Source of the DNA: an uncultured bacterium
Lineage (GTDB): Bacteria > Margulisbacteria > WOR-1 > O2-12-FULL-45-9
Direction of reading: 5' to 3'
Assembly: GCA_964568455.1 (NCBI GenBank)
Contig: CAZMPJ010000009.1
Span: 306-64,305, forward strand
Length of the DNA: 64,000 nucleotides
The notes under the pieces were generated by a model. That model searched no databases. It was not told the DNA's origin and saw only the letters and a list, made by a program, of their open reading frames with translations. Positions 14,286-43,800 of this stretch are shown in pieces. Position 1 is the first letter of the stretch; every line of letters begins with the position of its first letter. Both the position numbers and the translations under genes were made by a program.

Positions 14286-14294
14286 ATTTTTGTT

Positions 14295-17071: not shown

Positions 17072-17110
17072 GTAGTGGGTTCTATTCCCACCTTGGTTTG
17101 AATAAAATGA

Positions 17111-19996: not shown

Positions 19997-20005
19997 AAAT
20001 TCATT

Positions 20006-20081
20006 CGGGACGTGGCCCAGCTTGGACTAAGGCGCTACCTCGGGGAGGTAGAGATCGCTGGTTCGAATCCAGTCGTCCCGA
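20006..20081 (+). tRNA. tRNA-Pro (anticodon GGG)
   Basis: Acceptor CGGGACG/CGTCCCG, anticodon stem CTACC/GGTAG, loop TCGGGGA, T-arm GCTGG-TTCGAAT-CCAGT, discriminator A; 76 nt. Confidence 0.85.
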
Positions 20082-20090
20082 TTTTTAATT

Positions 20091-23008: not shown

Positions 23009-25244
<2,236 letters not shown>

Positions 25245-25306
25245 AAGTGTATAATTTGACCTAAAGGTGACATTTTTTGTAACCTTTGGGGCATAAGTAT
25301 ATAAAT

Positions 25307-25891
25307 ATGAATAAATCAGACATTTTTAACATTCTTAAATCAGACAAAACCGTGTTTTCTTTTAAGGACATTTTATTAAACAGCGAAGAAGCTGATGAAG
25401 AGCAACTGCGGCGCCGGATTAGTTATTATGTTAGGGAAGGGCAGCTTTATGGTATTCGCAGGGGGATTTATGCCAAAGATAAGAAGTATAATAAATTAGA
25501 ATTGGCGACAAAAATATTAGTGCCGTCTTATGTTAGTTTTGAAACAGTTTTGGCTGAAGCAGGAATAACCTTTCAGCATTACAGTCAAATTTTTGTGGCA
25601 TCTTATAAAAGCAGAGAGATTATTTGTGATGGCCAGGCTTATGTGTTTAAAAAAATTAAAGATGAAATATTAACTAATAATGTTGGCGTGGAAGATAAAA
25701 ACAATTATTCTATTGCCACAAAAGAAAGGGCGTTTCTTGATGTGGCCTATTTAAATAAAGATTATCACTTTGATAATTTAAGGCCTTTGGATTGGGATTT
25801 GGTTTTTGATATTTTACCTATTTATAATAATAAGCGCATGACAAAAACAGTAAATCGATATTATAAAGCGTTTAAGAAGGGCAAAGAGTAA
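25307..25891 (+). CDS. AbiEi-family antitoxin-like transcriptional regulator (type IV TA)
   Basis: N-terminal wHTH-like segment '...LRRRISYYVREGQLYGIRRGIY' is typical of AbiEi antitoxins. It lies immediately upstream of an AbiEii-like nucleotidyltransferase. Confidence 0.6.
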   Translation: MNKSDIFNILKSDKTVFSFKDILLNSEEADEEQLRRRISYYVREGQLYGIRRGIYAKDKKYNKLELATKILVPSYVSFETVLAEAGITFQHYSQIFVASYKSREIICDGQAYVFKKIKDEILTNNVGVEDKNNYSIATKERAFLDVAYLNKDYHFDNLRPLDWDLVFDILPIYNNKRMTKTVNRYYKAFKKGKE

Positions 25892-25895
25892 TTTT

Positions 25896-26600
25896 ATGAT
25901 ATTAGATACGGCAATACACAAAAATATGCTTTTGCGAATTTTAAAAGATATTTTTTCGGATGACAGTGTTGCGCCTTTTTTGGGTTTTAAGGGAGGGACT
26001 GCCGCCTATTTCTTTTATGGTCTTGATCGCTTTTCCGTTGATCTTGATTTTGATTTGCTTGATAACGCTAAAGAAAAACATGTTTTTGAGCAAATCAAAA
26101 AAATATTATCTGTTTATGGGAAATTAAAAGAGGCGGAAGCAAAAAGATATAATTTGTTTTATTTGCTTTCTTATCAGGATAAAGTTGAAGGTGCCCGCAA
26201 TATTAAGGTAGAAATTAACCGCCGGGATTTTGGGTCTAAATATGAGGTCAAGTCCCATCTTGGCATTTCCATGAAAGTAATGGTTAAGGAAGACATGGCG
26301 GCGCATAAAATGGTGGCAATGTTGGAGAGGATTGGCAAGACCAATCGTGATATTTATGATGTTTGTTTTTTTCTTAAAAATAATTGGCCAATAAATAAGA
26401 AAATTATAGAACTGCGTACTAAGGTGTCTTTTAAACAATTTTTACAAAAATGTATTCATTCGCTTGAGAAAATCAGCGATCGCAGCATATTAGCCGGTAT
26501 TGGTGAGTTGTTAAATGCTAAGCAAAAAGCCTGGGTCAAGTCAAAATTAAGAGCGGAGACTATTTTTTCGCTTAAATTGCTTTTAGATAATGAAAAATGA
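25896..26600 (+). CDS. AbiEii/AbiGii-family nucleotidyltransferase toxin (DUF1814)
   Basis: 'LGFKGGTAAYFFYGLDRFSVDLDFDL' matches the nucleotidyltransferase core ('GGTAL..Y...R.S.DLDF') of the AbiEii family. Confidence 0.7.
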   Translation: MILDTAIHKNMLLRILKDIFSDDSVAPFLGFKGGTAAYFFYGLDRFSVDLDFDLLDNAKEKHVFEQIKKILSVYGKLKEAEAKRYNLFYLLSYQDKVEGARNIKVEINRRDFGSKYEVKSHLGISMKVMVKEDMAAHKMVAMLERIGKTNRDIYDVCFFLKNNWPINKKIIELRTKVSFKQFLQKCIHSLEKISDRSILAGIGELLNAKQKAWVKSKLRAETIFSLKLLLDNEK

Positions 26601-26631
26601 TGGGGAGTTTGGGAAGGTGGGGATTATTTAG
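26591..26631. repeat. 41-bp perfect direct repeat, copy A (TGAAAAATGATGGGGAGTTTGGGAAGGTGGGGATTATTTAG)
   Basis: Identical to 31761..31801. It contains the stop codons of AbiEii (+ strand) and of the minus-strand 738-aa ORF. Its core ATGATGGGGAGTTTGGG matches the 3' end of the EndoQ-fragment copy at 30386..30415. Confidence 0.9.
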
Positions 26632-29600
26632 CGCTTTAGGTCTATTTTAGGGCCAGGGATAGGCTCATAAACTTTATCTTGAGGGCTAGAAGGTCTTTCT
26701 TCTGGAAGAACAACCTCTGTAGTAGGCGAAACTTCTCTTATAAAGCATCCGCTAGGAGGCATTCCGCTCATCCCAGCATCAGGATGACAACCACGTTTTA
26801 AAATTCTTCTTTTGACTACTTTTTCTTGTGTTGCATTGCCCACAATTTCTAATGCCTCACCGGTGCTGCTTGTTTCACTTAATTTTTGAAGAGTTCTTAG
26901 ATCGACAGTAATTTTTACTTGTTCCCCAATGTATTCATTCCAATGATCATAATTAATGTTTTCTATGCCAGCCTTAGCTTCTCGATTAACCCAAAGGATA
27001 AGTATTTTCTTTTCAAAACCGGCAGCTAATAAATTGGAGGCATTATCTTCAATGACTTGTAAATGAAAATCAATCTCCTCTGCTATTTTATTGCGCTCAG
27101 CCTCTGTTTTCGCTTCAATGTATTTATCAAAAAGAACATTAAGTTGTAAATAGGCGTTTAGGATGTTTGTTTTAAGGGTGTCAACTTGGGTTGAATTATC
27201 TGTAGAAATGTTCATAATTGGAAAATCGTAAAAAGCTTTGTCTTCGGATTTTATTTCTATCTTTGTTCCTTTTAAATGAGCTATTTGCATTTTATATGAA
27301 GTGATAAAGCTTGGATCATATTGAGCAGCTTCGTAGTAGACAACTAGTCTCTCCATGTAGCTAACCAACTCTTTAATTAATGCTTTGTATTTAGTACTAT
27401 CTTTTTTTGCTTTTCCTAGTTTTATTTTAGTTGCAAGAACTTTGTCTCTTAATTCCAGCACTTTTTTAGCACGCTTGATTTCTGTTTGTTTTTGAGCATT
27501 AAAAGTTGCAGGGTCTTCTATTAATGATAAAAGATATACACCTTCATAGAAATCGCCAACTACCTTAATACTTTGATCTTCATTTACTTTAATGATGGCT
27601 TTGCCAGTTCTATTTTGTAACATTTCGTTTGCTCTGTTGTGCAAATAGATTGTTAAATCTTTAGGAGAGTATTTTTTTAGTTTTGCTAGAGCAGTGATTT
27701 GTACTCCTAAAGTTAGTTTTAGCATTGGATCTTCGGTTTCTAGCCACTGTTTATATTGAGTTAGTATTAATTGAGCCTCTCCTTCGTAAAACATTTTTGC
27801 TGTATGATAGCTTTCAAGTTTTGCATCAATTTGTTCTTTGATTTTTTCTCTCTTGTGTTGTAAGCCTGAAATTACTCCTTTGTTGGCAGTTAACATTGAT
27901 TCAAGTATTACTTTTTGAGACTTAAGGTCAGCTAGAATTGCCTCTGCAGTAAGGATGTCTCCTTGGCTGTAAGCAAGCTGGGCTTCCATAAGCGCTTTTT
28001 CTGCTTTTTCATTGTAAGCTTCAATTTTATCAGTTGCTTTTTTTTGTAAGTCTAACATCTGTTGGGTGAGATTGTCATATTCAGCAATAAGCCCATCTAC
28101 TTGGCTAGAAGTATTTTCATATTCTTTCTTGGTTTCTATAATTTCAGCCCGGTTAGTTTTGACCCTTTCTAATAAGGCAGGCTTTAGATTTTCTCTGAAT
28201 GTTTTTCGAATATAACTATTACGATGATTTAGATAATATTGACCGCCAATTACAACGACAAATTCATTATGTTTAATGTCTGAATCATTAATGAATTTTG
28301 CCCAAACTTTTTCAATATTTTCGTTTTTACCTGAAGCCAGATAGGCTTGATAGTAAACACTGTTTTTATTAATTATGTATGTGTCAGTTTTTTTGTCTTT
28401 TACCACTAATCCAAGATTGATATCCATGTCTGATGCTTTTATTTTTTTCATTGCCAGTAGCTCATATAATCTAGGCATAGCGTAAGTGAAATAAAACAGT
28501 TGTTGAGCCCGGGCCTGTTTAGCTTGTTTTGATTGCTTTTTGATAAAGTTTAGGCCTGAACCTTTGTAATGAATTTCTGGCAGGCTTAATTTTGTGTGTT
28601 TGAGCAGCCACTTAGCAAACCTATAGGCTTTGTCTTTCTTTATAGTTCCTTCGGGCTTGAAATATCCTGCAAAAGCCTTGTTTATATCTGCGACCCTGTC
28701 AAAACTAGCCAAAGCAGGATGCCAGCCTTTTTCTTGTAGCTCTTTTGTTGTAAGAGGTTTAGCGCCAACGGGGTGAATTACTCCGTGTTTAAGATAACCA
28801 GATAGATCTCCCATATCATTTGGGTTTACTGTTAGTATATGCATAATCTGTTCCGGTAATTTCCCCTAAAATCTTTTTGGCTGTTTTTTGTGAGCCATCA
28901 TCTATTTTGGCAATTACGTCTTTGCCGGAAATTGTAGTCTTGTCTCCCATCCATTTTTTAGCTACTTTTTTGGCGTCAGCCGCGATTATCTTATTGGTAT
29001 GAGCATAAGTTTTAATTACATGAGCGCGGTATTCGGCACTGGCGCCATGAGAAACGCGATCAATGTGGCGCTCAAATGCTCTGTTTAAATCATCCCAGTT
29101 AATGGATTCATCGCCTTCGCTATTAATAAACATGCCGCGCGTGCTGGCCCAGTTATAAAAAGCCCGACTTAGGCCCAGTGTTTCCGCTTCCTCACGCGAA
29201 ATTTCGCCATCTTCCCACATTTCTTGATAAACTTTGTATCCATCTCCACTTAACCCCATATCAGTAAATCTATGCCATTGATGATCAACTACTAAGTCAA
29301 CCTCATCTACTGTGCCGTTTTCTGGGGTCTTAACTTCCAATTGATTGCCATCAAGTTCAATTAAATAGCCTTTATAGCCTTCTGATAAAATTTTGTAACT
29401 GCCATTATCCTGTCTTTCAACCAGCATATAGCGGGTTTGTTCTGTGCCCTCAACTTCTTCCTTAAAACTAATGATGCGTTGGTTTTTAGGAAGATTTTTG
29501 GAGATGGCTAATTTTAATTTGGGATCGGAAAGCACATCAAAGTCATCATGTTTAAAAATAGTTCTATCTGTAGTGAGTAGAGCAGGATTTGTTTGAGCTG

Positions 29601-29913
29601 TTTGGATTGCAACTTGAGCTAAAACTTCTGGATCATCCAAATAAACCAATATTTCGCCGGATTGATAATTTTTGTCTCCTATTGAAATTGTTTCCGAGAA
29701 ACTTGTTGAATGAGCATTTGCAATAGCATTTATTTCGCCAACAGTTAAATTTGATATGCTATCTACAAAACCTTGTTTTTTATCCTCTATTTCTGTTAAC
29801 CTTGTTCTAATAGGATCAATGCGATCTTTGAATTCATCTTTGATTTCCTGTTCAGACGCACATTCACCACAAAAATTAGGCCGTGAAGTATGTGTTTTTG
29901 ATACAGAGATGAA
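26628..29913 (-). pseudogene. Degraded paralog of the 959-aa coiled-coil protein: 5'-truncated and split by a frameshift into 277-aa and 738-aa ORFs
   Basis: The 277-aa ORF (28816..29649, TTG start) and the 738-aa ORF (26628..28844) overlap by 29 bp in different frames. Together they are collinear with residues ~100-959 of the 50624..53503 protein (e.g. 'RIISFKEEVEGTEQTRYMLVERQDNGSYKIL' versus 'RIITFTEKVDKKEVTRVILVERQDDGTYKVL'). The frame stays open and homologous upstream of the TTG ('DKKQGFVDSISNLTVGEINA' versus 'GKEQNFIDNIDSISGKEWEANIN') until it meets the EndoQ fragment; no start codon is present. Confidence 0.7.
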
Positions 29914-30415
29914 TTATAAGGCCATGTTTGAAGCAATTAAAACTAAAGATAAATCAAAGTTCCTCTATACGGTTGAGTTTTATCCGGAAGAGGGCAAATA
30001 CCATTATGACGGCCATCGCAAATGTAATGTTTCTTGGAAGCCTAAGCAAACTAAGGCAAATAAAGAAATTTGTTCTGTTTGCGGCAAGAAGGTTACGGTG
30101 GGGGTTATGAGTCGGGTGGATGATTTGGCTGATAGGGAAGAGGGCGTTGTGCCGCAAAATGCTATTCCCTTTAAAAGCATGATTCCTTTGCAAGAGATTA
30201 TTGCTGAAGTAAGGAAAAGAGGAGTTAATACTAAAGGCGTTCAAGAAGAGTATTTTAAGTTGATTGGACAATTTGGTTCAGAATTCAAAATTTTACTGGA
30301 TACACCGATTGCTGATCTGCCCGGCGATATTGGGGGGGCGGTAGAAAAGGTTAGAGCTGGGAAGGTTAAGATTGAGCCGGGGTATGATGGGGAGTTTGGG
30401 GTGGTGGGAATTTAA
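29847..30415 (+). pseudogene. Duplicated 3' fragment (C-terminal ~190 codons) of the EndoQ-like gene
   Basis: About 88% nucleotide identity to 24669..25244, starting at CCTGTTCAGACGCACATTCACC. It has no N-terminal PHP domain or own start. It ends 'GYDGEFGVVGI*' versus 'GYDGEFGRLDIGG*' in the full gene. Confidence 0.85.
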
Positions 30416-31689
30416 TCTTGCTGCCACTTCCAATAAGGGATAAATTTGATTTCATGGCCGTGAAAAGATTCTTGTTTTTCATAATCAAAAGTAATAACCA
30501 AAAGTTGTTCGCATTTTAATTCTTTGCCTGCTTCAATAAGGGCTTTTAATTCGCGAATTTTGATTTTTTCGTTGCCGATTTCGTAACAAGCTTGAACAAG
30601 GGATTCTATTTTGAGTCCTTTTTTTAAAACAAAGTCTACTTCTTTTTTGTTTCTGGTTTTGTAATAAAACAGGCTCTGGTTGGGATGGTATCCTTGGCGG
30701 AGCAGTTTGATAAACACGGCATTCTCAAAAAATTTGCCTATGTTGGAAGTAAATTGGAAGGCTTTTGCCGTGGCAAAGCCGTTATCCGCCAAATAAAGCT
30801 TTTTGGGGGAACGGATTTGTTCTTTTACTTTTAATGAGTATCGGTTGAGGCTGAAGAACAAATAAGTTTCTTCCAGATAATAAAGATATTTTTGTATGGT
30901 GTTTGTGCTGTTGAAATTAAGTGATTTTCTTAAGCGATTAAAAGTATATTCCGAGCAAAAGTTTGATATTAGATAGAGGGCAAGTTCGTATATTTTTTGC
31001 GGAAATCTAATTTTGTATCTTCTTACGATATCTTTTAGGAGTATTGCATCAAGCAGTGTTTCCAGATACATTTTTAGTTCTATATCTTTAGTCGTTATTT
31101 CCGGATATCCGCCGTTTTTAATATAAGAGCGCAATAGGTTTAACAACTCTCCTTTTTTTTCTGGAGAAAGGAAAGAATTTGATTCAATAACCATATTTTT
31201 TGCTCTTAAAAATTCTTGAAAACTAAAGGGTAGTATCTCAATGGGAATATACCTTCCGGTTAACGCGGTGGCCAATTCTTTGCTAAGGAGCTTGGCGTTA
31301 GAGCCGCTTATAACCAGGTTGTAGCCGCGGCGATGGAGCTTGTTGATAAAGTGCTCCCAGTTTTTAAGGTTTTGGATTTCATCAAAAAAGATCCACTTTG
31401 CCTTAGGATAAACTTCAAAAAGGCCCTGTACTATTTCGTCGTAGTTGGTGATTTTTAATAGGTTTTCATCTTCAAAATTGATATAAGCAAAATCCTTATC
31501 CTTAAGCAGTAAAAACGAAAAGACCGATTTGCCGGATCGGCGCGGACCGGTAATGACTTTAATTAAATCGGATTTAACATGGGGTTTGGCAGAGAGGAGC
31601 TGGTCGCGAAAGATATACTCTTTGGCAAGTATTCTTTCTTTTTCCTGTTTATGTTGTTGAATTATGTTATTATTCATATTAAATAGCAC
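30412..31689 (-). CDS. AAA+ ATPase of the AAA_14/DUF4143 family
   Basis: Walker A 'GPRRSGKS', Walker B-like 'IFFDEIQ', and a C-terminal DUF4143-type region; 425 aa. Confidence 0.75.
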   Translation of the reverse strand: MLFNMNNNIIQQHKQEKERILAKEYIFRDQLLSAKPHVKSDLIKVITGPRRSGKSVFSFLLLKDKDFAYINFEDENLLKITNYDEIVQGLFEVYPKAKWIFFDEIQNLKNWEHFINKLHRRGYNLVISGSNAKLLSKELATALTGRYIPIEILPFSFQEFLRAKNMVIESNSFLSPEKKGELLNLLRSYIKNGGYPEITTKDIELKMYLETLLDAILLKDIVRRYKIRFPQKIYELALYLISNFCSEYTFNRLRKSLNFNSTNTIQKYLYYLEETYLFFSLNRYSLKVKEQIRSPKKLYLADNGFATAKAFQFTSNIGKFFENAVFIKLLRQGYHPNQSLFYYKTRNKKEVDFVLKKGLKIESLVQACYEIGNEKIKIRELKALIEAGKELKCEQLLVITFDYEKQESFHGHEIKFIPYWKWQQD

Positions 31690-31760
31690 AAAAAAACCAT
31701 ATATTGTTCAGTACACTGTATATAATGCACATGATAGCATAATTATGGTTAAGCGTCAAG

Positions 31761-31801
31761 TGAAAAATGATGGGGAGTTTGGGAAGGTGGGGATTATTTA
31801 G
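31761..31801. repeat. 41-bp perfect direct repeat, copy B
   Basis: Identical to 26591..26631. It contains the stop codon of the 5,408-aa ORF. Confidence 0.9.
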
Positions 31802-34800
31802 TGCTCAATGCATTCGCCTCTTTTTTCTTCTTCCTGCATAAGTAATAGCTTAGAAGCAGTGACCCAATCTAAAACGTCTTTGTTGGTATAAAAACGTGCT
31901 GGTTTTTTGTCACAGTTTTCACAAGGAATTATTCCTGCGTTTAAATAAATTGCTGCCCATTTGGCAAAATCGTCAGGAATTAAGTCAGGGTGCAATATAT
32001 TTCTTTCCCCGACTTTAGTATATATGCCAGAAAGATCCAACAATTGTCGGGCGGTAGGTCTTTGATTATGAGGAATGTTGAGTAGATCACATAATTTTCT
32101 TCTTTCTTCAAACAAAGGTTTTAATAAATGAGCCCGATAATTTTTAAGCACAGTATCGATTGTTACTTCTGGCGCGCATTTATTACTATGTTCTACTAGA
32201 GATTTAACTAGTTCTAAAGACTCAATATATTTATTGTTATTATCTAAATATTGCTTGAATTCAGTTTTACTTTTGTTAATTTTTGTTTTAAATTGATTTA
32301 TTACAATTGTTTGGATGTAAGATGGATTAATTTCTTCTGGTCCATTGATAGGGACAAGGATAGGCTCTTCCATGCCTCCAATTTTAATAAATAAAGTTCC
32401 CTGACCAGGAACAACTTCCTGATAAGCTACTATAACAGAAACAATTGGTTCTTTGTCTTTAGAGACTAAATAATATACACCACGTTCTTCCCCAGTGATT
32501 ATTTCAAGACTTTCAAGTTCTTTTTCTAATTCTTCTAAGCTCTTTATTTTAGCGGTTATTTTATCTTTGGTTTCTTCTGCTTTGGCTAATTTATCTGATA
32601 AATCTTTAAGAGTTTCAATTCCTTGATTCTTGGTAAAGTCTCTTATGGCAGCTATGTGATTATCAACAGCTTTTTCTTGATCATTAGAAAAAAGCTTATC
32701 AAGCTTTGCTTCGTAATATTTTAAGAGTAAGTCTGGTATAGCGGCATTAAAGCTTGGATATGTTTCTTGTATTTTTTGCCATAGCTCAAAGTAAAGTTCT
32801 AATGGTTTTTGTTGTGGCTTTTCGTGTTTTGAGCCTTTTCTAAAATAAGTTAAACCTTGCATAATTGAACGAACTGTTTTTTTCCTTCTACTGTGAATTA
32901 ATCGGGCATCAGCTTGAGTTAAAGCGCCTCCATTTGTTCCGCCAACTGAATAACCTTTGATTTCTCCGTTAGCTGGTCCATTTAAGCCCATTGTATTAGC
33001 TTCTTCTTCGCTGAGAATTCGCACTGGAAAACCATCAACGTCAATTACATCTATACCAATTTCTCCTGTTTCATGGTCTTTAATATAAGGGATCAGGAAG
33101 GTGCCAAAATATTCATGATAAGCACGAACTATTTCTTGCATTTCCTCTGGTGAAGCATCTTCTAAGGATTTAACCTTGCCATTAAGAGTTAAAGTCTTTA
33201 CTGCTTCAGATTTAGGGTTAATATAACCAAGCTTTGCTAAAGTAAAAATAAGCTCTATCATTAGTAATGGAGAAGTCCAAAATTGAGCTGGGCTAAGAAT
33301 AATATCTTTTTTATCTTTAATTAGGCGACCCAATGATTTGCTTGCTCCCAAAGCTCTAATTGCCATTGTTTTAATGCGTGGTTCATGAATATATTTTTCT
33401 GCTATTTTAAGAGCTTCTGGGTCATATTGATTCCAGGGAATCCCAGCTTGTAATTCAGCTTCCACTAAGAAAGTTACCCAGCACACTAATGCAGCTACGA
33501 CTAAACTTGCTCCTAGTGTTTCTGGTGCGGTAGCAGCAGAGGCACCTAAAAATGTTTCATAAGCAGCTGCTCCATCTAGGGTTGTCATGAGCGTTCCGCC
33601 TGCCATTAACATGGGGTAGGTCACTTTAGTCAGAATAACAATATCTATGAGTGTTGCTGTTGTATCTAGAGCCCAAGCAGTAGCGGTTCCTGGTTTTACT
33701 GCGCCATTTTCACTTAATAAAGTACTATGCAATAATGTGGAAGTAGGGCTCATTGCTACAGCAAAAGGCTTTAAGCCTTGAGCCACAAAGGTAATAGATT
33801 TGCCAAGACCAGTGTCTTTATATTCACCCCAGAATTCTTCTCCCATTTCCCCAGCTAATTCAGCAGCAACCATAGCAATTAACAAGGGCAGATGTTTGGC
33901 AAATTTTACTTTATCAACCATTCTAAGCATAACTGGGCTACCTTGTAAGTATTTCATGGTGAAGATTAGAGCTCCTAAACTGGTCACAGAGCCGAAAGCA
34001 GCATGGCCTTCTTCTCCTGGTTTTGCCACTGCAATTCCTTTAGCAACATCAATTAACATTACTCTATGAATAGCTTGACCTTCACTAATGCCAGCGGTAT
34101 ACATAAACATACCCCGCTTTGCGCCAAAAACACCCCAGTGAAGCATTCCTTGTCCAGCTGCAGTTTGTATTTCATCAGCAGAAGGCATGCCTTTCCCTGA
34201 TAACAGTGAAGCAGCTATTTTAGCTAATGGATCAGCAACCGCACCTAGCAACATTTCTCTAGCGGGAGAATAAGGGCTACTAAAAACTGGGTGTTGTTTG
34301 ATTCTTTTAAACCTACCACCATTTCCACTGCCCTTGCCAAATACTCTGCGTAAAAATTTAGTATAAGTTGGCTTTAAGCCCAGTCCTTCCCAACGACTGA
34401 TAGCTTCTTCAATAAACATCCCTTCCATGGTAGCTTTAACTTCTGCTCTTCCTTCGGGCGTTTCCATTAATTGAGCTTCAGTAAAAACGCCATGATATTT
34501 TTCTAATACTCTTTCTGTAGCACGTTTTTTCAAACCTTCAATGTCAGCTAATTTATCTATTCTTTCCTTAGCTCTTTTTTGCCAGTTACCGCCTTTGGCC
34601 TTTTCTTCGGCTACGATTTGAGCTTTTTCTAAAGTGCTCATAGTTTCAATTAACTGCAGCGCTTTAGTTTGATCCTTTTTAGAAACGTTAGCTAGTAATG
34701 GGATTTCCAGTTTTAATTCTAAACTCTTTCCTTTGTCAGCTTCACCGAGTAAATATTGAATAGCAAAATCAATATTTAAGTGAGGATTGTTTAATTGTAA

Positions 34801-37800
34801 TTGTTTGGCTAATTCTATTAAGGCTTTTTGTCCATCCATAAAAGCGGCTTTATCTGCAGCAGAACCTCTTAGCCCGTCAATTTCACTTTTTTCTACTTTG
34901 GCTAATATTTCCTCTGCTCTTTGAGCATTAATCACTTCAACGCTATATTCTTTGCCACCTTTTCTTTCAATTTTTACTTCTATTGCTCCATTGGCTCTTA
35001 AAAGATTCATTAGCGCGATATCGCCAGCTTTAACTCGATCAACTAATCTAAGATCAACACCTTCTAAAAACATGAAAGTGGTTTCAGTCATTATTTTTGT
35101 GCCTTTAGTAGGTTTTTTTGCTTCGACTTCAGCAGCTTCTGTTAAAGCCTTTTCTTGGATTGCCCTAGATTTTAATTTGCTCATTTCTGTTAAAGTGTCT
35201 ACTTGACTAATACTGCCTGAAACAAGTCTATTTCTTAGGTGTTTTAATTTGAAAATATCTTGATTTGTTTCAGTCGTAGCTGGTTGAGCTTCTAGATTAT
35301 TTAGTCTAATATCAACAGCTAACTTAGCCAATTCCTGAAAGGTAATATTGCTGCTGCTTTTTTCTTTTGCCTCAAGCAATATTCTTCTTTCTTGAGGAGT
35401 TAAATCAAGAGCACTAGAAACTTCTATCAGGCTTTTTAATTCACTAATTCTTGCTTCCCAAGTGGTAAGGTCTGCTTCAGTAACTTTGTGTTTTTTCATG
35501 CGGCTAGCACCGTGGCGGCTGTGTCTAAAGTATTTTATGCGAGCTTCTAAAGAAAGTATTTGTTTTGCTAGTTCAGTAGGAGTATCAATAAAAGTAGTGT
35601 CAGCATTTTCTAGATAATTTAAGAAGTTTTCATGAGCTTTTTTGTCGTTTTGGGCATCAAGATTTACTTTTTTAGCCCCAATTTGTTTAACTTGGTCAAC
35701 TTGGCTGGTTTCAAAGCCCAAATCAATGGCAAAATAATTGCGATAAGCATCTTTGTTGGATCTGCCAAATCTGAACATTTGCCTCCACAGAACTTCAACA
35801 TCTGCTTTTAAGAGCTTGCCCTCAAACAGACCTTTTAATGTTTCAAAGTCAACAATGTTGTGATCAAAATAATAGCCTAATCTTAATAGTTTGCGCCCTT
35901 CAATGAATTTGGCAGGATCCACACCTAGTTTTTCTCTTAAAATCTTTTCAGCTGCCAGATAATCTTTATGTTTTATGGCTTTTTTGCCATTGTAACGAGC
36001 TAGTTTTCTTAAAAGCTTAACTTCTTTTCCGGTTAATTCAGCAAATCTTTCTACTGGCACATCTTTTAAGCAATCTAGTGAATCAAATTTTAACAAGGTA
36101 TTCTTGTTGCGATTTGCTCTTTCAAAAGCAGCACTATCTAAATGAGTAGTTGGTGCATCTTTGTCTGGTTCGATTGCATCAACTTTTCTTTGGCGAGTTT
36201 TTACTAAATCAGTTACTTGTAAAATTAAAGCAGAAACAGGCTCAGCTACAGCGTGAGAAGCGTTAGAGCCAAGTTTTATAAAACTGGCTTTGCCTTGGCT
36301 GTTAAATACTAGATGGCCAACTGTTTTTGTTTTGGCATCATAACACCAGAATTTACCACTGCTGTCAGCCTTGTAAGTATAAACCTCTCCTTTGATTTTA
36401 ACTTTTCCGCTCAAAGGAATTTTTGCTTTGGCAACCTTTACTTTTATTTCGGTTTCAGTTTGTGTCTTGGTTTCTCTTTGAGCATTTTCAAGATCAATTT
36501 CAGTAATACTAATATCATGGCGCAGGTGATGGGCGCTAAAACCAGGGAACATTCGTTTCCAAAGTTTTTCTAAAAGAGAGGCGGTGGCTCTTTTACCAAG
36601 ATTAGCCATTTCTTTTTTCTTAAAATCATCACTTTGATTATCAAGTTGGAGGTTTTGAATAGCATTCATGCCATCAACAACTAAAGCGTAGTGTTCGCCA
36701 ACCAGTTCTCGCAATTCTAACTCTCTTTGACTAAGTTTTCTTACTTGTCCGCCTTCATCGCGATATTCAAATTCGCGATTGCTAAAGCTGTCCAATGACC
36801 CTTCAGTTGTAGTAAGTTTAAAAGAATTAAACAGTTTTTCACCTAGAGCTTTGATTAAGGCTGCGCGGCTAGGAATTTTGCGGCTGATAGTTACTTTGCG
36901 GCCTTTTGTGGTTTCATTTAACTTTCGTTCTAATTCAGTTAATTTAGTTTCGTCTTTTAAGTCTGCATCAGTTTCAATGCCAACTTCTTTAAGTAATAAA
37001 TCAAGGTATGATTCAATGGCTAAGCGGTAAAAAGTGTTAAAGTCAGACAGATTAGCAGATAAATCACTGATAGTTGCTAAGCTGTCATATTTTAAAGCAG
37101 CTCGATCAAATAAGCGTTGCATAGATTCAAAATTTCGCTGATATTCTCTGCGGAAAGCTTCATTAACAAAGTAATTAATAGCTTTGTTGTTTGGATCATA
37201 TAAGTTTACTGGTTTGTCTTCTCCGCCGGCAGCTTCTGCGGCAGCTTTTAGAGCGGGTTTTTCTATTTTTTCGTTTAATTGGTTGAAAACTGCATCTCCA
37301 TCGCCAGTATAAACACTGGAGGTTCCTGGAAAATAGTTTCGAGCACCACGACCAATACTTTGCAGAATCTTGGCTTCGGTTTTAGCGCCAGCTGAAATTA
37401 CATGTAAGCCGCCTTCAGTAAAATTAGTTTCAGCGCCACCTTTAACTAAACTGGCTTCACCAGCACGGGCAATAGCTTCGGTAATACCAGCTTGTACTTG
37501 AATATCAAGACCGCGAGAGAAGTACGTAACAGTAACTGTACCAGCATGTCCAGCTTGAGTGATTTTTGCTTCTCGAATGATTTCTTGAGCGCTGCCTTTA
37601 ACTCGTTGACCTTTTTCATAAGCAACTAGTTTGCCTCTTTTCACTTTAAATTCATAATTTCCTAGTTTGTAAGAACCGTGTTGTCTGACTAGCCCTTTAA
37701 GCCGTTCGATTTCTGCTTTGTTTTCACCATAATCTTCACCTGTAAAGGTTTGAATTAAGACGCCTTCTCGTTGGCCTAATTCTTCAACATATTCTTTAAA

Positions 37801-40800
37801 TTGCTCTGGTGTTTCAAGTACAATAAAGACAGGGCGATTGCTTTTGGCAGTGGCTACAGCTTCTTCAGCAGCAGCTTGTCTGCGGGCGGTTGCGTCAAAG
37901 ATAAAAGTGCGGTCTCTGCGCACAACACTTAATTTTTTACCTTGTAATTTAGGATGTTTAGGTAGAATTTCTTGTTTCCAAATTTGTTTTGCTTCGGCAG
38001 CAGAAAAACCATAAACGTAGATTTTGCCAACGATGTCTTTAGTGTGGGCTCCAGTGTCTTTCAACTCTAGTGTTTCTTCTGCGGCTAAAGCTAGTTGTTC
38101 CAATTTGGCTGTGACTTTAGCTTTGTCTGTGCCAAAATGAAGTTCTGCTCTTGGGATATAAGGAGGAATTTCAACTACTCTAAAGCCCAAGTCAGCATAA
38201 GCATGGGTAATTACTTCGTGAGAAGCTGCCAAAGAGCCAGATAAACCAACTACTTTTCTGTGATGCAGAAAGACTTTTCTAATATCAATATCAGCCACAG
38301 TCATGGTTTCTCGTTCAATTGGCAGGCCGTAGACTAGTCTTAAAGCTTCATCCAAACCATTACCAAAACGCTTATCAGGTGATTCATCGCCACTTTCTTC
38401 TAATGGCACAATTGATTTAGCAGTTACTATCTTTATGGTTCTTTCTTCGCCATCAACAATAATTGTTTTTTCTTTTTCTTTTTTACCTTTGACCTTGAAT
38501 TTAGTTTGATGAGATAAACGTTTTTCTACTCCTTCATATTCTTTTTCCCGGTAAAGCTGATAAGCTTGTTTTAAAGCTTCAAATTGCATTTGAGCAAAAG
38601 CATCGTAACCACCGTATTTTTTCATGCCTTGTTCAATAAACCTAATTCCTGCTTCAGTGTATTCACCAGTTTTTTGATTAAAGCAAAGAGGATTATTAAT
38701 AACTTGTTGGAAGACTTTGTGGGCGTGTTTCCATTTGTTTTTGGTTCTGGCCATTGTAACAGTGTCAACCCACATGTTTTGAGTTTCACCTTTAGGTCCT
38801 GCAATAGTGTAGGTGGTTTCTGCTGTTTCAATACCATATAAATCCCATTCATCAGCAATTACAGCGCCTCGAGGCACTTTTACTTCGCCGCCACCAAGGT
38901 CAAAAGCATGACTGGATACATCAACAACTACTACATTACAAGTGTCATACACTCTTTGTCGTTCTTGAGGAGTATATGATTTGCCAGTATCAGGGTTTTT
39001 GCTATATAAGAAACCTACTTTAAGCCCAGCTCCGGTTAGTAATCTCATTAAAGGATCTTTGGCCATCTGCTCAACTAGCGGATCACCGGTAGTAAAGATA
39101 TATACTTTGTTGTAATGGGCAGATAACTGTACAGCAGTTAAAACGTCAATTAAAGTTTTACCACCACCAGTTTCTAAGTGGATTAAATGATTGCCTGGGG
39201 CAGCAAGAATTTCAGTTGATTGTTGCTGGACTAAACGTACAGTTTTGCCTGGTTTTTTGATTTCTCCCTTTTTGTTTCTTTCTTCAGTAGCAAATCTTGC
39301 AGCAGCAATAGTCCATTTACTCATTTCCAGAGAACCAATTTCTCCGTTGCGATATTGGTTTGCTGCAGTTCTATAATCAGTCCAGAATTCAGCAGGTTTG
39401 TCTTGGTAGCTATCTGCTAATTCAATGCCTTGTTGTCTAGCTGCAAGACTTGAAGGTTTCACTTCATCTAAATGTCTTTGATTCTCTGTGGCGTCAAGTG
39501 GTTGGTTGGTAAGGGTGGGTAGTTTAGTTGTTGATTCTGGCTTAGTTTGTCCATTAGTTCTAGCTTTTTCCTTAAGGTCTTTAAGAATTTGAGCATTATA
39601 ATCTTTTGGTAGAACTAGCCAAATTTTGCAATCAGCATCAGTGGCGCCATAAGGTCGTTCAACAATATAGCCTGGTTCAGCGCCTTCTATTACTCTAACT
39701 TTAGTTATTTCTACCCAGTTGCCGTTCCATTCAATAAAAAAGCCTTTTCTAGCGGGATCATAGTGCAGGATTTCAGCTAATTGACCTTCGCCTTTTTTAG
39801 CTTTTTCAACTTCTCTGGTTAAAGATTTATTGCGGCTGGCTTCTCCAGCACCAGTATTTTTAAGCTTACCATTGCTAAGGCCAATTTCTGCTAGGGTGTC
39901 AGTTGGATTAATATCATGGCTATTAAAAGCTTTGTGTTGTTTTTCTTTGTCAGACAAAGCACGTTTGGTAGCATTAATAGCGCCTTTAATACCAAATCTT
40001 ATAGTTAGATCAACTGTATGGTCTGCGATACCAAAAGCATAGTCCATTGGCCAAGTCCAAACTCTAGCCAAGCTCCTACCTAAGCGACCACCTTCGTGTA
40101 GGGCGGTTCTGGCTTCATGATCAACTACTAACCACGGAGAAATTAAAGTGCCTTTAAAAAATTGGCCAATTCCTCTTCTCCACTTTGAACCAGTTGTTTC
40201 TTTGCCTGTTTCTGAATCAAGTTTTCTATTGAGGGTAGCGTTGTTGATTGATTCTATGACAAAACGGATTAAACCAGCTTCTCTAATGCGGCTGTGAGTA
40301 GTAGAATCAAAAGGTTTGCCACTGAAATCACGGAATAAATCTTGCAGAGCACTAATTGGCCTAGAAAGTGCACCATGTTTCGCAAACCTTCTCATAAAGT
40401 TGGGTGCTTTTTTATGCAGATATTGAAGCATTTTTCTGCCTAGAGGGAATTTATTTAATGCTCCAGCAACTTGAGCATCAAAAGCCATGGTATTAGACCA
40501 AATGCTTCTTTGGCCGCCCATCATAGTCAAATAGTTTATGGCATACCAAATAGCCAAGGCATTACCAAAGTGGCCTTGTTTTACTTCTTCAAAAAATTCG
40601 CGGTACCAGATAAAAGCCATGCTGCGCCAGAAAAAGATATGGAATAAGTATTTGGTCCCACTTAATTTATCCCAACCTTCACCATTGATAAGTTGATCAA
40701 TAACTTCTTTACTTAGATCAACATAGATCCACTTGTACATGAAAAAGCGAAACATTACTTGTTGAAAGATCAATTTCATGGCAACTTCGCCACCAGTGTT

Positions 40801-43800
40801 GGAATTTATAACCTGATTTAATATTTTTGTGCCCCAGTCATCACCAGGTAATTGGGAAAGATTAAATAGGAATTCTTCTCGCCAATCACTGTCAGTAGGC
40901 GGGATTAAATATTCTAAAATGCCTTCACTGCTTTCAATCTCGCCAATAATTTTTCCTTTAGTTCCAACAACATCTTCTTTTCCTTGGGCCATGTTAAGTT
41001 TTCTGCCAATATGTTTTAGGGTAGTGTAGTGTTCTTCTTTTAGAGATCCATCATCATTAAAAGCAGCAGAATTTTTTAATAATGTTTCAAGTTTAGCTAA
41101 TTCTTCTTGTTCGTTTTTAATACCAGATCCAGGCAAGATCTTAGTGAGAATTTCTATATCATGTTTCATGATTACACCTAGGCCAGGGTTATCACCAAAT
41201 AGATAATTGTAATAAGCATCTGGGTCTTGGAATCTTAGGATGGTGTCGTAATAGTTAACTGCCATGAGCTTTAAGCCTTTTACTTCTAAACTTAAATCAT
41301 CTTCTGCAGCAAAACCTGCTTCTTCAGCTACTTCTGCTATATGTTCTGGAGTAATAGCAAGATTAATACTAGCAGCTAAAGCCTGTTTGAAAGATAAAAG
41401 TAAATCTTCGTTATGATCTCCTTCGGCAACAGCATCAAGTGAGAAAATAGTGTCACTTTCTAATGTTGCAAAAACAGCAGCAGCATTTTCTATGACTAAA
41501 TTATGAGCATTATGTTTGCGCATTCTCTGATCAGTTATAAAGTCATAATAGTATTCTTTATAAAGTTCGTCTTTACCTTGAGAAATAACCCATTGCGTAG
41601 CTTCATCAAAAACACCATCTGTTTGGAGATATTTACTATTAATAAACCATTCAACAAATTCTTTGGTTACTGCATCACTTTCAATGATGTTAATAATAGA
41701 ATCAAGTTCTTGCTGAAGAAGCCATCTTTTATAAACAAGCTCTTCTAATTTAGGATCGTCAGGCTTAATTTCCTTGATTTGTTTGGTTAAGCTGTCGATT
41801 TGGGTACGTAATTTTTGAGCTTCCTTGGCTAAGCCATTATCTTTAGCCCATTGCCGTTTTAAGAAAACTAGGTTAGTACGTTGTGGTTTGGCTTGCAAAC
41901 CAGTAGTAATCATATTAGGTGCCATTTCATACCATTTTCTTTGAGCTTCCATAGCGCCTAAACCAACTACTTGTGTTCTTTGCCAAAGGGCTTTTGCTCC
42001 TTTATTATCAGGATTTAGTTTCATGTATTTTGCCAAAAGCTTAGTATCAATAGTGGTGTGTCCTTCAGCTTTTAGCTCCTTAGCCATTATTCTTAAGTCT
42101 TCAATTTCTTCTTGGTTAAAGCTATAAGCATCATCTGGGCGGACACTTTTAACTAATAGAGCTAAATGCTTATCTTTGATTTCTTTTGCTCTTTGTTTAA
42201 GTAGAGCATATTCTTCAGCACTGATATATACTTTCTCTTCTTGTTTACGTTTTTCTTCTAAAGAACGCAGCCAAGCAATATCTTTTTCATCTAGGGCGTT
42301 GTCTTTATCAAACTGAACCCGTTCTGTACCAGATTGGGTAGCCATCATAATGGTTCTGATTAATTGATCTTCATTTTTAAGTAATTTATCTAAAAGCCTA
42401 ATTCTCTTTTTATCTTGTTCGGTTTTTTCTTTTTTGCTTTCTAATTTAGCTTTTTCTTGTTTAAGAATTTCTCTTATGTCTGTGGCAAGTAGTTTTTGAG
42501 CTAAATCATAGAGTGCATCACTTTTTTCTACGCTTAACAAGTAAGTTCTTAGTTCTTTATCTAAGTAAACAGGGTAGTGGACTCTAATATTGGACTTGTT
42601 TTTCTCCATCCATTCAGCTGCTTTTAAAAGATCTGCTGGTGTTAAAGGAGTTAAAACGGTATCTCCAGGATCGCCAGAAGCAAGCGGAATGCCCATTTGC
42701 AGCCATTGTTTCTTAAGAGCTAATAAGCGGTAGATTTTGTAACCATATAATTTGCCTGGAGGCAAATTTCTTAATTGAGCAAAAGTTGGTACAGCTTTAG
42801 CTGCTTCTTTTTCATCAACAGGAATAAAAGAACCATCTACTAAACGAACTGTAGGGACAAAAGCAAAGCCTTGAATTTCTATTTCAGTTTTTTGATAATC
42901 TGTAAAAGCCTGACTGATCAATTCTGGATAAATGTCAATTTTAGCAATGCGCTCACTTAAGGTTTTAAGATCTTCTTTGCTGATGGTTTTGTTGTTTAGG
43001 TAAGCATCTTTTATGCGTTCATAAGTAACTTTGTTTTCTGGGTCTACTTTAATTAAGTAAAGCAGCAAACAAAGCACAAAACCTACATTATTAAACTGAT
43101 TTAATTTATTTTCGTTGTCAGCTAAAGCTCTTTGAGCGTGGGCTTTGAGCATTTGGCCGATTTTGGTTTCTTTTAAAGCGCGGGTTAGATCTAAGTACTT
43201 TTCTGATTCATCTATTTTAATAGTATATTTTAATTTAAATACTTTTGGCAGCTCTTTGTTTCTTTTTAGACCTTCTGGTTTAGGGTTATTTTGGAGCTGT
43301 TTGGTAATTGCGGCTTCATCAATGTTTTTATCATCTAAAGCCGCTCTGTAAAAAAGAACTAAATCTTCGTTTTGTAAAGAGCCTTTTCCAGTCAATCCTT
43401 CACGAATACGTTTATAAGCAGCTTTTTCTTCAGGTTTTTCTGCTCTTTGTTCTAGATAGTAGGCCATCTGATATAAATAATTAGTTGTTTCAAGCGCAAG
43501 GCCTTTGTTGGCATGGAAAGCTAAACCAAGTTTAGTGTACATGAATACATGAGCTAAACTTTGTTTGCCTTTCCAGGTAGCAGCATAAGCCCTAAGCAAG
43601 CTGCCTTCGTCTGTTTCGCTCCAAGAAAGAGCAATGGGCTTTTTCTCGGTTTTGTCATACTTAGTTCGCTTAGGTCCTTGAGTCAGTTGTTTTTCTGTTA
43701 CTTGGGTAGCTTTGCGATTTTTGAAACTATAAAGGGCATTAATAGTGGCTTCATCCATTTGCCCCCATTTAAAAGTAACGCCAGGAATCCCAGATAAATA

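What the first reader, a model, noticed from the sequence alone, without database searches (positions are those of the whole stretch)
26591..31801. att-like 41-bp repeats and a duplicated EndoQ 3' fragment mark serial cassette boundaries
Directly visible in the sequence. (a) TGAAAAATGATGGGGAGTTTGGGAAGGTGGGGATTATTTAG occurs identically at 26591-26631 and 31761-31801. Each copy contains the stop codon of a minus-strand gene (the degraded paralog and the 5,408-aa gene). Copy A also contains the AbiEii stop. (b) The last ~570 bp of the EndoQ-like gene (24669-25244) are duplicated at 29847-30415 at ~88% identity. (c) The end of that fragment, TATGATGGGGAGTTTGGGGTGGTGGGAATTTAA, shares a 17-bp identical core (ATGATGGGGAGTTTGGG) with the 41-bp repeats. 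The ATPase gene 30412-31689 terminates exactly at that fragment end. The EndoQ 3' terminus, or diverged copies of it, therefore recurs at four successive module junctions: EndoQ | AbiE cassette | repeat | paralog pseudogene | EndoQ fragment | ATPase | repeat | giant gene. This is the pattern expected when elements integrate site-specifically into the 3' end of a gene and regenerate it as attL/attR, as integrative elements do at tRNA or tmRNA 3' ends. Here the target would be a protein-coding gene, and the pattern is iterated several times. The 5' truncation of the paralog where it meets the EndoQ fragment fits recombination at this site.
Basis: seen in the sequence. Interest (0 to 1): 0.8.

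Follow-up and report, generated by a model that had tools for sequence, protein, structure and literature searches.

The report
Defence-cassette slot at EndoQ gene end
The repeats are leftover copies of the last ten codons of a DNA-repair gene (EndoQ); they mark a small slot that holds different anti-phage cassettes in related bacteria, and this genome carries two versions of the slot in tandem, which is a neat example of a gene-end insertion hotspot rather than a new kind of system.

Summary
The 41-mer occurs exactly twice, and the 17-nt core occurs four times against none expected by chance. The last 576 bp of EndoQ are duplicated at 87% identity. Read in frame, each 41-mer encodes KNDGEFGKVGII*, a 13-codon relic of an EndoQ 3' end. 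Its first 10 nt are the last codons and stop of AbiEii.

Relatives clarify the structure.
- One species (L096) has EndoQ abutting the giant gene with nothing in between.
- Another (L098) has EndoQ, AbiEi/AbiEii, relic, giant gene, with a 27/29 direct repeat flanking the cassette.
- In the window a second cassette, a PADLOC PDC-S01 ATPase, sits between repeats with the same boundaries (26/29).

This is therefore a clade-specific slot for small defence cassettes, bounded by 29-nt repeats of the EndoQ terminus.

The serial pattern is not four integrations. It is two alleles of the slot joined at a non-repeat junction (about 29838). The EndoQ fragment evolved as a functional gene in a diverged relative (dS 0.72, dN/dS 0.07).

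I found no recombinase, no dyad symmetry or hairpin in the repeat, and no comparable repeat in the other 77 EndoQ loci tested. The att-like reading is partly supported, and the insertion mechanism remains inferred.

The parts
24063..25244 (+). Resident full-length EndoQ-family gene (EndoQ_X, 393 aa). It ends [12 protein letters not shown], and its last codons are supplied by the AbiE cassette.
   Evidence: ORF. Precomputed Pfam PF27218 MJ0043_C. Homologues at 68-70% identity are named 'endonuclease Q family protein'. Synteny QueA-TGT-EndoQ is conserved in L096, L098 and L101.
25207..25235 (+). Left repeat of the AbiE slot (decayed). The first 17 nt match the core at 15/17. It is 6 nt shorter than the L098 counterpart.
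   Evidence: 21/29 identity to the relic.
25228..25255 (+). AbiE cassette promoter, TTGACA-16-TATAAT (12/12). The -35 box lies inside the last EndoQ_X codons. It is followed by the inverted repeat AAAGGTGACA..TGTAACCTTT, which is also present in L098.
   Evidence: sequences.
25286..25891 (+). AbiEi antitoxin/regulator gene (the gene call starts at 25307).
   Evidence: PADLOC AbiEi, E 3.9e-61. 75% aa identity to the L098 counterpart.
25896..26600 (+). AbiEii nucleotidyltransferase toxin gene. Its last codons and stop (..AAT GAA AAA TGA) form the first 10 nt of the 41-mer.
   Evidence: Pfam PF08843, E 1.4e-18. PADLOC, E 2e-76..
26591..26631 (+). 41-mer copy A. It consists of the AbiEii tail (TGAAAA), a 29-nt relic of the EndoQ terminus (26597-26625) and ATTTAG. 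It encodes KNDGEFGKVGII* and contains the stop of the minus-strand ORF 26628..28844.
26628..29838 (-). 5'-truncated minus-strand gene split into two ORFs (738 aa at 26628-28844; 277 aa at 28816-29649, open upstream to the junction). The N-terminal part is related to ORF 50624..53503, and the C-terminal part has no convincing relatives.
   Evidence: 33-34% identity to residues 96-385 of the 959-aa ORF.
29838..29843 (.). Illegitimate junction between the truncated minus-strand gene and the truncated EndoQ_Y gene. It does not lie at a repeat.
   Evidence: End of homology. Present in independent assemblies.
29838..30415 (+). 3' 576 bp of a diverged EndoQ orthologue (EndoQ_Y). The reading frame is intact and it ends YDGEFGVVGI*, like the unoccupied-site gene of L096.
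   Evidence: 87% nt identity to EndoQ_X, dS 0.72, dN 0.05, dN/dS 0.07. P0002 and L096 have the same terminus.
30384..30412 (+). Left repeat of the ATPase slot (the live-type EndoQ_Y terminus).
   Evidence: 26/29 identity to the relic and 27/29 to the L096 terminus.
30412..31689 (-). AAA_14 + DUF4143 ATPase, matching the PADLOC candidate defence family PDC-S01 (gene call 30412-31677). Its stop overlaps the EndoQ_Y stop.
   Evidence: Pfam. PADLOC PDC-S01, E 6.7e-108.
31731..31759 (-). Promoter-like site for the ATPase (TTGACG-17-TATCAT, with TG before the second hexamer). It abuts copy B of the 41-mer.
31761..31801 (+). 41-mer copy B. It is identical to copy A, including the AbiEii-tail nucleotides TGAAAA even though no AbiEii precedes it. 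It contains the stop of the 5,408-aa gene.
31798..48024 (-). Giant gene (5,408 aa, with a SecA_DEAD/helicase-like segment), convergent with EndoQ. Its C-terminal ~1,370 aa (31798 to about 35920) are unrelated to the orthologous C-termini of L096 and L098.

Best explanation
In a small clade of uncultivated bacteria (the window organism, L096 and L098), EndoQ has lost its usual C-terminal tail. Its stop abuts the stop of a convergent giant gene. The last ~10 codons of EndoQ (29 nt, ATGATGGGGARTTTGGnnGGTGGGrrTT) form a slot that takes compact cassettes of about 1.35 kb, each a promoter plus one or two defence genes.

The slot is empty in L096. It holds AbiEi/AbiEii in L098 and in the window. In a diverged relative 'Y', a piece of which now lies in the window, it held a PDC-S01-type ATPase. 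Each occupied slot has the live EndoQ terminus on the left and a 13-codon relic of the old terminus on the right. The 41-mer is that relic plus the last codons of AbiEii.

The window contains two alleles of the slot in tandem:
- [EndoQ_X - AbiE - relic - truncated minus-strand gene]
- [3' third of EndoQ_Y - ATPase - relic - giant gene]

Most likely about 5.2 kb of DNA from relative Y was joined in by one illegitimate junction (about 29838) plus one recombination. The recombination was either a single crossover at the relic by a circularised fragment (Campbell-type, which automatically duplicates the 41-45 nt of shared homology), or homology-facilitated illegitimate recombination anchored upstream.

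Shown: the anatomy, the empty and occupied states, the foreign and formerly functional origin of the fragment, and the age of the AbiE cassette.

Inferred: how cassettes first entered (att-type recombination by an enzyme acting in trans is my preferred guess, at about 35-40%), and which recombination route produced the tandem.
For: - The repeats exist and exceed chance.
- In frame the 41-mers encode an EndoQ C-terminus, and their first 10 nt are the AbiEii end.
- Empty site: in L096/L097, EndoQ (87% aa identity, ends ..VVGI*) is followed at once by a convergent gene of at least 1,808 aa.
- Occupied site: L098 has EndoQ-AbiEi-AbiEii-relic-giant gene and is collinear with window 23570-26625 at 72.8% nt identity.
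- Repeat identities are 27/29 (L098) and 26/29 (window ATPase slot). The start (ATGATGG), the end (..TT) and the TGAAAA on the left of the relic are the same in all cases.
- Both cargos are defence-type: AbiEi 3.9e-61, AbiEii 2e-76, PDC-S01 6.7e-108. Each has its own promoter at the cassette edge.
- The fragment differs from EndoQ_X by 75 substitutions in 557 nt with no indel or stop: dS 0.72, dN 0.05.
- The AbiE cassette is as diverged as the core genes (pS 0.72-0.75 for EndoQ, AbiEi and AbiEii).
- The relic evolves far more slowly than neutral sequence: 5 differences in 25 non-coding nt against pS about 0.72, P about 1e-7. This indicates gene conversion with the live terminus or nucleotide-level constraint.
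- More distant relatives (L101, L107) have no giant gene, and EndoQ is followed by an HhH-GPD gene; L101's EndoQ keeps the long tail, whereas L107's (395 aa, ending ..KISITKSL*) does not.
- The architecture is identical in independent assemblies.
Against: - No donor 'Y' genome was found, so the predicted Y locus (EndoQ_Y - ATPase - relic - 959-like gene) is hypothetical.
- Only three lineages carry the slot, so the 'slot' rests on three states.
- Copy B carries TGAAAA, the AbiEii tail. That requires either that Y once held AbiE or that TGAAAA belongs to a shared recombination site. Neither is shown.
- Identity of 41/41 (44/45) between the two relics is somewhat surprising for lineages with dS 0.72 (P = 0.003 at the 13.5% nt divergence of the EndoQ copies). 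It needs conservation, gene conversion or a very recent event.
- Phylogeny ((window, L096), L098) means AbiE was either lost precisely in L096 or gained twice.
- No recombinase, circular form or excision product has been observed.
Confidence: 0.6

Rival explanations
1. All four EndoQ-terminus copies are attL/attR sites made by repeated site-specific integration (tandem accretion) of recombinase-less cassettes. An integrase encoded elsewhere in the genome would act in trans.
For: - Direct repeats of the target gene's 3' end flank each cassette, and an empty site exists.
- Repeat boundaries are identical for two unrelated cargos, and both have a shared TGAAAA next to the right-hand repeat. This resembles the conserved element-side motif next to the ssrA repeats of Dehalococcoides islands (PMC3146451).
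- The relic is conserved far beyond neutral expectation.
- The CIME/accretion precedent (PMC5704250).
Against: - The junction at about 29838 is not at a repeat.
- The segment between copy A and the ATPase slot consists of two truncated genes, one of them a 576-bp piece of a diverged functional EndoQ. Site-specific events alone cannot make this.
- No recombinase is encoded in 64 kb.
- The repeat has no hairpin and no dyad symmetry by eye.
- The AbiE cassette has saturated synonymous divergence from L098, like the core genes.
- No viral contig carries an extended match to the site.
- Of 79 EndoQ loci tested, only the window and L098 have a significant tail repeat.
Confidence: 0.2
2. The repeat is maintained as a functional element. 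It could be a 3'-UTR or termination signal for the minus-strand genes, since its complement is C-rich and G-poor directly after their stop codons. It recurs because each large minus-strand gene carries it, and it has nothing to do with cassette insertion.
For: - Both copies start exactly at the stop of a minus-strand gene.
- Nucleotide-level conservation is higher than neutral in live and relic copies alike.
Against: - The sequence is plainly an in-frame EndoQ terminus, and it is the live EndoQ end in L096.
- No terminator-like structure and no Rfam match.
- It does not explain the AbiEii-tail nucleotides in copy B or the flanking of cassettes.
Confidence: 0.1
3. An in-situ tandem duplication of [EndoQ 3' part - cassette - relic - downstream gene 3' part], followed by divergence and cargo replacement inside this genome. 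No foreign DNA would be involved.
For: The overall order A-B-C-R-D | B-C-R-D has the topology of a tandem duplication.
Against: - dN/dS of 0.07 with dS 0.72 means both EndoQ copies diverged as functional genes.
- The cargos (AbiE versus ATPase) and the downstream genes are unrelated.
- The relics are nonetheless identical.
Confidence: 0.05
4. An assembly chimera of two co-existing strains, one carrying AbiE and the other the ATPase in the slot.
For: Several short contigs break at the repeats.
Against: Contigs from JGI, ENA and Logan assemblies of different samples cover the junction at 29838 and both 41-mers at 99.96-100% identity. The junction lies in unique sequence.
Confidence: 0.02

Closest known systems
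Cis-mobilizable elements (CIMEs) and tandem accretion of integrative elements at the 3' end of a gene (streptococcal ICESt1/IME systems; review PMC5704250)
   Same: Direct repeats of the target gene's 3' end flank cargo that has no integrase. The target gene is regenerated. Tandem arrays are separated by att-like repeats. Toxin-antitoxin or defence cargo is typical.
   Different: No related integrase-bearing element or integrase was found. The cassettes are only ~1.35 kb and consist of a promoter plus gene(s) with no decayed backbone. The tandem contains an illegitimate junction and truncated genes, which accretion alone does not produce.
Dehalococcoides ssrA genomic islands (PMC3146451)
   Same: Serial direct repeats of a gene's 3' end downstream of that gene. 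A short conserved element-side motif lies next to each repeat (compare TGAAAA here). Some islands lack integration genes.
   Different: There the target is tmRNA, the repeats are 20 bp, there are up to dozens of islands, and many carry a serine-recombinase module (dsiB). Here the target is a protein-coding gene, there are two cassettes, and there is no recombinase.
Prophage integration into the 3' end of a protein-coding gene with a substitute gene end (phage 21 and e14 in E. coli icd; from my own knowledge, not checked here)
   Same: The inserted DNA supplies an alternative 3' end, so the host gene stays intact. The displaced original end remains as a relic on the far side.
   Different: Those are complete or defective prophages with their own integrases. 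Here the substitute end is only 4-7 codons and overlaps the cassette promoter.
Defence-system hotspots between conserved core genes (from my own knowledge of the general concept)
   Same: Alternative defence cargos (AbiE, PDC-S01, none) occupy the same position between the same flanking genes in related genomes.
   Different: The slot is tiny, lies inside the last codons of a gene, and is bounded by 29-nt direct repeats rather than by intact flanking genes alone.
Homology-facilitated illegitimate recombination and Campbell-type integration of foreign DNA (from my own knowledge: described in naturally transformable bacteria)
   Same: One homologous event plus one illegitimate junction explains the circularly permuted foreign segment and, in the Campbell version, the duplicated 41-45 nt.
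   Different: Not demonstrated here. The donor is unsampled.
Integron gene cassettes and Xer-dependent dif modules
   Same: Small promoter-or-gene-sized cassettes without their own recombinase, bounded by short repeats.
   Different: No attC-like hairpin, no dif-like dyad symmetry, and no intI in the window.

Membership tests
Integrase-mediated integrative element / CIME at a gene 3' end | Cargo flanked by direct repeats, one of which is the 3' end of the target gene | tested here: met
   L098 27/29, window ATPase slot 26/29, window AbiE slot 21/29 (decayed).
Integrase-mediated integrative element / CIME at a gene 3' end | Unoccupied target site in a related genome | tested here: met
   In L096/L097, the EndoQ stop is followed at once by the stop of the convergent giant gene.
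Integrase-mediated integrative element / CIME at a gene 3' end | A tyrosine or serine recombinase in the element, next to it, or in a related element that targets the same site | tested here: not met
   No recombinase domain in any sizeable ORF scanned across the 64-kb window. None next to the slot in L096, L098 or the same-population contigs. No viral contig has an extended site match. The rest of the genome could not be searched.
Integrase-mediated integrative element / CIME at a gene 3' end | Excision to a circular form and restoration of the empty site | not testable with these tools
   Needs the raw reads of the source metagenomes or an experiment.
Integrase-mediated integrative element / CIME at a gene 3' end | The target site is used repeatedly across hosts that carry the target gene | tested here: not met
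   Of 79 EndoQ loci tested for a downstream repeat of the EndoQ tail, only the window (E 1.8e-12) and L098 (E 1.1e-7) are significant.
Integron cassette | attC site with imperfect inverted repeats that fold as a hairpin, and an adjacent intI/attI platform | tested here: not met
   The 61-nt windows around both copies fold at 0 to -0.9 kcal/mol, no better than shuffles. No integrase in the window.
Xer-dependent element (IMEX / dif module) | 28-nt dif-like site made of two inverted 11-nt arms around a 6-nt spacer | tested here: not met
   The repeat is G-rich with internal direct, not inverted, similarity. No self-complementarity (sequence).
AbiE (type IV toxin-antitoxin / abortive infection) | Adjacent AbiEi (wHTH antitoxin) and AbiEii (nucleotidyltransferase) genes, with an operator inverted repeat in the promoter | tested here: met
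   PADLOC AbiEi 3.9e-61 and AbiEii 2e-76. Pfam PF08843. Promoter 12/12, followed by the inverted repeat AAAGGTGACA/TGTAACCTTT, which is conserved in L098. Activity was not tested.
PADLOC PDC-S01 candidate defence ATPase | Match to the family profile (AAA_14 + DUF4143 architecture) | tested here: met
   E 6.7e-108, covering profile positions 6-406 of 412. Pfam AAA_14 and DUF4143. A defence function is only a candidate annotation.
EndoQ family | Full-length similarity to proteins annotated as endonuclease Q / TIGR00375 / PF27218 | tested here: met
   Homologues at 68-70% identity are named 'endonuclease Q family protein'. PF27218 on the gene call. TIGR00375 scores 196 bits, below its 326.6 cutoff.
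EndoQ family | C-terminal clamp-binding (PIP-like / Q..LF) tail, as in archaeal EndoQ (PMC4858679) and most bacterial homologues | tested here: not met
   Most bacterial homologues whose terminus was displayed end ..DGE[FY]GKIKIF + 15-20 aa + [SG]LF*. The window, L096 and L098 proteins stop 4-7 residues after DGEFG.

The most novel reading that the evidence does not exclude
The 29-nt EndoQ terminus is the recognition site of an unidentified recombination system that acts in trans. The system would insert and exchange minimal, recombinase-less defence cassettes (promoter plus one or two genes, ~1.35 kb) at the end of a protein-coding gene. That would be an integron-like cassette economy without attC hairpins. 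On this reading the 'dead' relic is kept intact because it is a working site, and TGAAAA is part of the cassette-side site.
Probability: 0.15. Interest if true: 0.7.

Novelty: new variant of a known kind. Interest (0 to 1): 0.4.

Why it matters
This is a clean, fully resolved example of how a defence hotspot can sit inside the last codons of a housekeeping DNA-repair gene in an uncultivated marine bacterium. Empty, AbiE-occupied and ATPase-occupied states are all visible, together with a tandem of two alleles that records a recent acquisition from a related lineage.

If the repeats prove to be active sites, it would extend cassette-type gene exchange to a recombinase-less, hairpin-less format at a protein-gene terminus. 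It also shows that this clade's EndoQ has lost its clamp-binding tail at the point where the giant gene abuts it, which may matter for EndoQ function.

Tried and rejected
- An exact search for the relic (36 nt) in 185,579 species genomes found nothing.
- The junction motif GAAAAATGATGGGGARTTTGG in metagenome contigs gave two unrelated soil hits.
- Site motifs in IMG/VR gave 0 hits for the 25-nt pattern. The 16-mer gave 77 hits, none extending by more than 10 of the next 19 nt, which is consistent with chance matches.
- tblastn of EndoQ against 80 loci from other phyla found no second EndoQ fragment anywhere. A tail-repeat test across 79 loci was significant only for the window and L098.
- The idea that the truncated minus-strand gene is a displaced C-terminus of the giant gene was rejected. 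It has no similarity to any giant gene, and its N-terminal part matches the stand-alone 959-aa ORF.
- Homologues of the 738-aa ORF: only itself in the first library, and itself plus one marginal hit (E 1.6e-4) in the second.
- The closest ATPase homologues (72% and 67% identity) lie in unrelated contexts with no convincing flanking repeats. These ATPase genes therefore do not generally travel with such repeats.
- Rfam search of 24-33 kb found nothing. Folding of the repeat found no structure.
- Looking for cassette-free or alternative variants in the same population: all contigs are at least 99.96% identical and show the same architecture wherever they overlap it.

Full report
**Observation**

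The 41-mer occurs exactly twice in the window (26591-26631 and 31761-31801). No further copy exists with up to three mismatches, and none appeared in shuffled controls. Identity runs to 45 nt with one mismatch. The 17-nt core ATGATGGGGAGTTTGGG is also present at 30384 (exact) and 25207 (two mismatches), against zero expected.

The 3' part of the EndoQ-family gene (24063-25244) is duplicated. 24661-25222 matches 29838-30399 at 482/557 identical positions with no gaps. Contigs from several samples and three assembly sources are 99.96-100% identical; those that span it carry the junction at 29838 and both 41-mers. The structure is therefore real and fixed in this population.

**What the repeats are**

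In one frame both 41-mers read KNDGEFGKVGII*. The resident gene ends [12 protein letters not shown] and the fragment ends YDGEFGVVGI*. The 41-mer is thus a 13-codon relic of an EndoQ 3' end. Its first 10 nt (T GAA AAA TGA) are the last codons and stop of AbiEii. Its last bases hold the stop of the convergent minus-strand gene.

**Gene content**

QueA, TGT and EndoQ are followed by AbiEi/AbiEii (PADLOC E 3.9e-61 and 2e-76). Next come a minus-strand gene split into 738-aa and 277-aa ORFs, the EndoQ fragment, an AAA_14/DUF4143 ATPase on the minus strand that matches the PADLOC candidate family PDC-S01 (E 6.7e-108), and the 5,408-aa gene. No recombinase domain was found in any sizeable ORF scanned across the 64-kb window.

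**Relatives**

The protein search gave two close EndoQ relatives.

- P0002 (87% identity, ending ..VVGI*) lies on L096/L097. There TGT-EndoQ is followed at once by a convergent gene of at least 1,808 aa, with no cassette and no relic.
- P0003 (75% identity) lies on L098, which has EndoQ - AbiEi - AbiEii - TGAAAAATGATGGGGAATTTGGACGGGTGGGGGTTTAA - a 5,954-aa gene. L098 is collinear with window 23570-26625 at 72.8% nt identity.

In L098 the live EndoQ terminus and the relic match at 27/29. In the window the EndoQ_Y terminus and copy B match at 26/29. The resident EndoQ_X terminus has decayed to 21/29 and is 6 nt shorter. The repeat starts at ATGATGG and ends at ..TT in every case, and the right-hand copy is always preceded by TGAAAA.

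Each cassette carries its own promoter at its edge. For AbiE this is TTGACA-16-TATAAT, with the -35 box inside the last EndoQ_X codons. For the ATPase it is TTGACG-17-TATCAT, abutting copy B. Repeat-to-repeat periods are 1,390, 1,383 and 1,364 bp.

More distant relatives (L101 at 72%, L107 at 73%) have no giant gene, and EndoQ is followed by an HhH-GPD gene. L101's EndoQ has the long tail. Most bacterial homologues whose terminus was displayed end in a Q..[SG]LF motif. This resembles the clamp-binding box shown for archaeal EndoQ (PMC4858679). The window clade has lost that tail where the giant gene abuts.

**Age and origin**

Between the window and L098, synonymous sites are saturated for EndoQ, AbiEi and AbiEii alike (pS 0.72-0.75). 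The AbiE cassette is therefore old and has co-diverged with the core genes.

The EndoQ fragment differs from the resident gene mainly at synonymous sites (dS 0.72, dN 0.05, dN/dS 0.07) and has no indel or stop. It spent its divergence as a working gene in another lineage ('Y') and was truncated recently. It is closer to the resident gene than to L096, at 86.5% versus 80% nt identity.

The relic evolves far more slowly than neutral sequence. It shows 5 differences in 25 non-coding nt between the window and L098, P about 1e-7 at pS 0.72. L098's two copies also share lineage-specific bases. This points to gene conversion with the live terminus, to repeated recombination at the site, or to nucleotide-level constraint.

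**The tandem**

The order is EndoQ_X - AbiE - relic A - truncated gene | EndoQ_Y 3' third - ATPase - relic B - giant gene. This is two alleles of one slot placed head to tail. The joint at about 29838 lies in unique sequence, not at a repeat.

The truncated gene is not related to the giant gene. Its N-terminal part is 33% identical to residues 96-385 of the 959-aa ORF at 50624-53503, so it lacks roughly its first 80-95 codons.

One illegitimate junction plus one recombination explains the layout. There are two candidate routes:
- A circularised ~5.2-kb fragment of Y DNA crossed over at the relic, which duplicates exactly the shared 41-45 nt.
- Homology-facilitated illegitimate recombination, anchored in the conserved genes upstream.

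I cannot separate these two routes. An in-situ duplication is disfavoured by the dN/dS value and by the unrelated cargos.

**How cassettes entered**

The evidence points in two directions.

- For att-type recombination: a direct repeat of the target end, a regenerated gene, an empty site and identical boundaries for two cargos. This is the pattern described for CIMEs and tandem accretion (PMC5704250) and for the Dehalococcoides ssrA islands, which also carry a conserved element-side motif next to each repeat (PMC3146451).
- Against it: I found no recombinase. The repeat has no hairpin, no dyad symmetry by eye and no Rfam match. No viral contig carries the site. Of 79 EndoQ loci tested, only the window and L098 have a significant downstream tail repeat.

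The closest ATPase homologues sit in unrelated contexts without convincing flanking repeats.

**Verdict**

The idea of four iterated site-specific integrations does not hold. The locus is best described as a clade-specific slot for small defence cassettes at the EndoQ/giant-gene junction, present here as a hetero-allelic tandem.

It works like an att-flanked, recombinase-less island but fails the recombinase criterion for membership. I rate it a new variant of a known kind, of moderate interest.

Noticed in passing
window 48170-48217 and 50413-50460: A second pair of direct repeats (48 nt, 83% identity) flanks a 2,243-bp unit made of another AAA_14/DUF4143 (PDC-S01-type) ATPase (49204-50358, minus strand) and a 313-aa ORF. 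Copy 1 is the 3' end of the 313-aa ORF plus 25 nt. Copy 2 is a degenerate relic just upstream of the ATPase. The layout (relic - promoter - ATPase - gene ending in the repeat) parallels copy B - ATPase ... copy A.
   Followed up: partly
window 31798 to about 35920 (C-terminal ~1,370 aa of the 5,408-aa gene): The giant gene is orthologous to the L096 and L098 giant genes only up to about residue 3,940-4,034. The C-terminal regions of L096 and L098 match each other (69% over 1,185 aa) but not the window gene. The C-terminal third has therefore been replaced in this lineage.
   Followed up: partly
window 25224-25244; L096 3500-3515; L098 1700-1724: EndoQ in this clade stops 4-7 residues after the DGEFG motif and lacks the ~20-aa tail ending Q..[SG]LF* that most displayed bacterial homologues have. 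That tail resembles a sliding-clamp-binding motif (archaeal PIP box in PMC4858679).
   Followed up: partly
window 31742-31766: The 25 nt left of copy B match the EndoQ sequence in the same register at 11/25, including a contiguous GGTTAAG. The 25 nt left of copy A match at 2-3/25. This may be a longer, more decayed EndoQ relic under the ATPase promoter, or it may be chance.
   Followed up: partly
window 11968-12004, 14197-14287, 17110-17199: A separate intergenic repeat family built on AATGACGAAT/ATTCGTCATT. It includes 90-nt inverted copies (93% complementary) that bracket a 2.8-kb block holding tRNA-Pro(CGG) and the plsY-like, M23 peptidase, bactofilin and methylase genes.
   Followed up: no
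window 28816-28844: The 277-aa and 738-aa minus-strand ORFs overlap by 29 nt in different frames, whereas the related 959-aa ORF is continuous. This is probably a frameshifted pseudogene. One strain variant calls the second ORF at 728 aa.
   Followed up: no
window 14899-14972 and 20005-20082: Two tRNA-Pro genes (CGG and GGG anticodons) lie 5.1 kb apart and share a 52-nt 3' segment at 85% identity. No island features were noted next to them.
   Followed up: no
window 26601-26625 versus L098 3052-3076; all 29-nt copies: The 29-nt EndoQ terminus is conserved at the nucleotide level (24-27/29) in both live and relic copies across species whose synonymous sites are saturated. The cause is unresolved: gene conversion, site function, or constraint from the antisense gene end.
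   Followed up: partly
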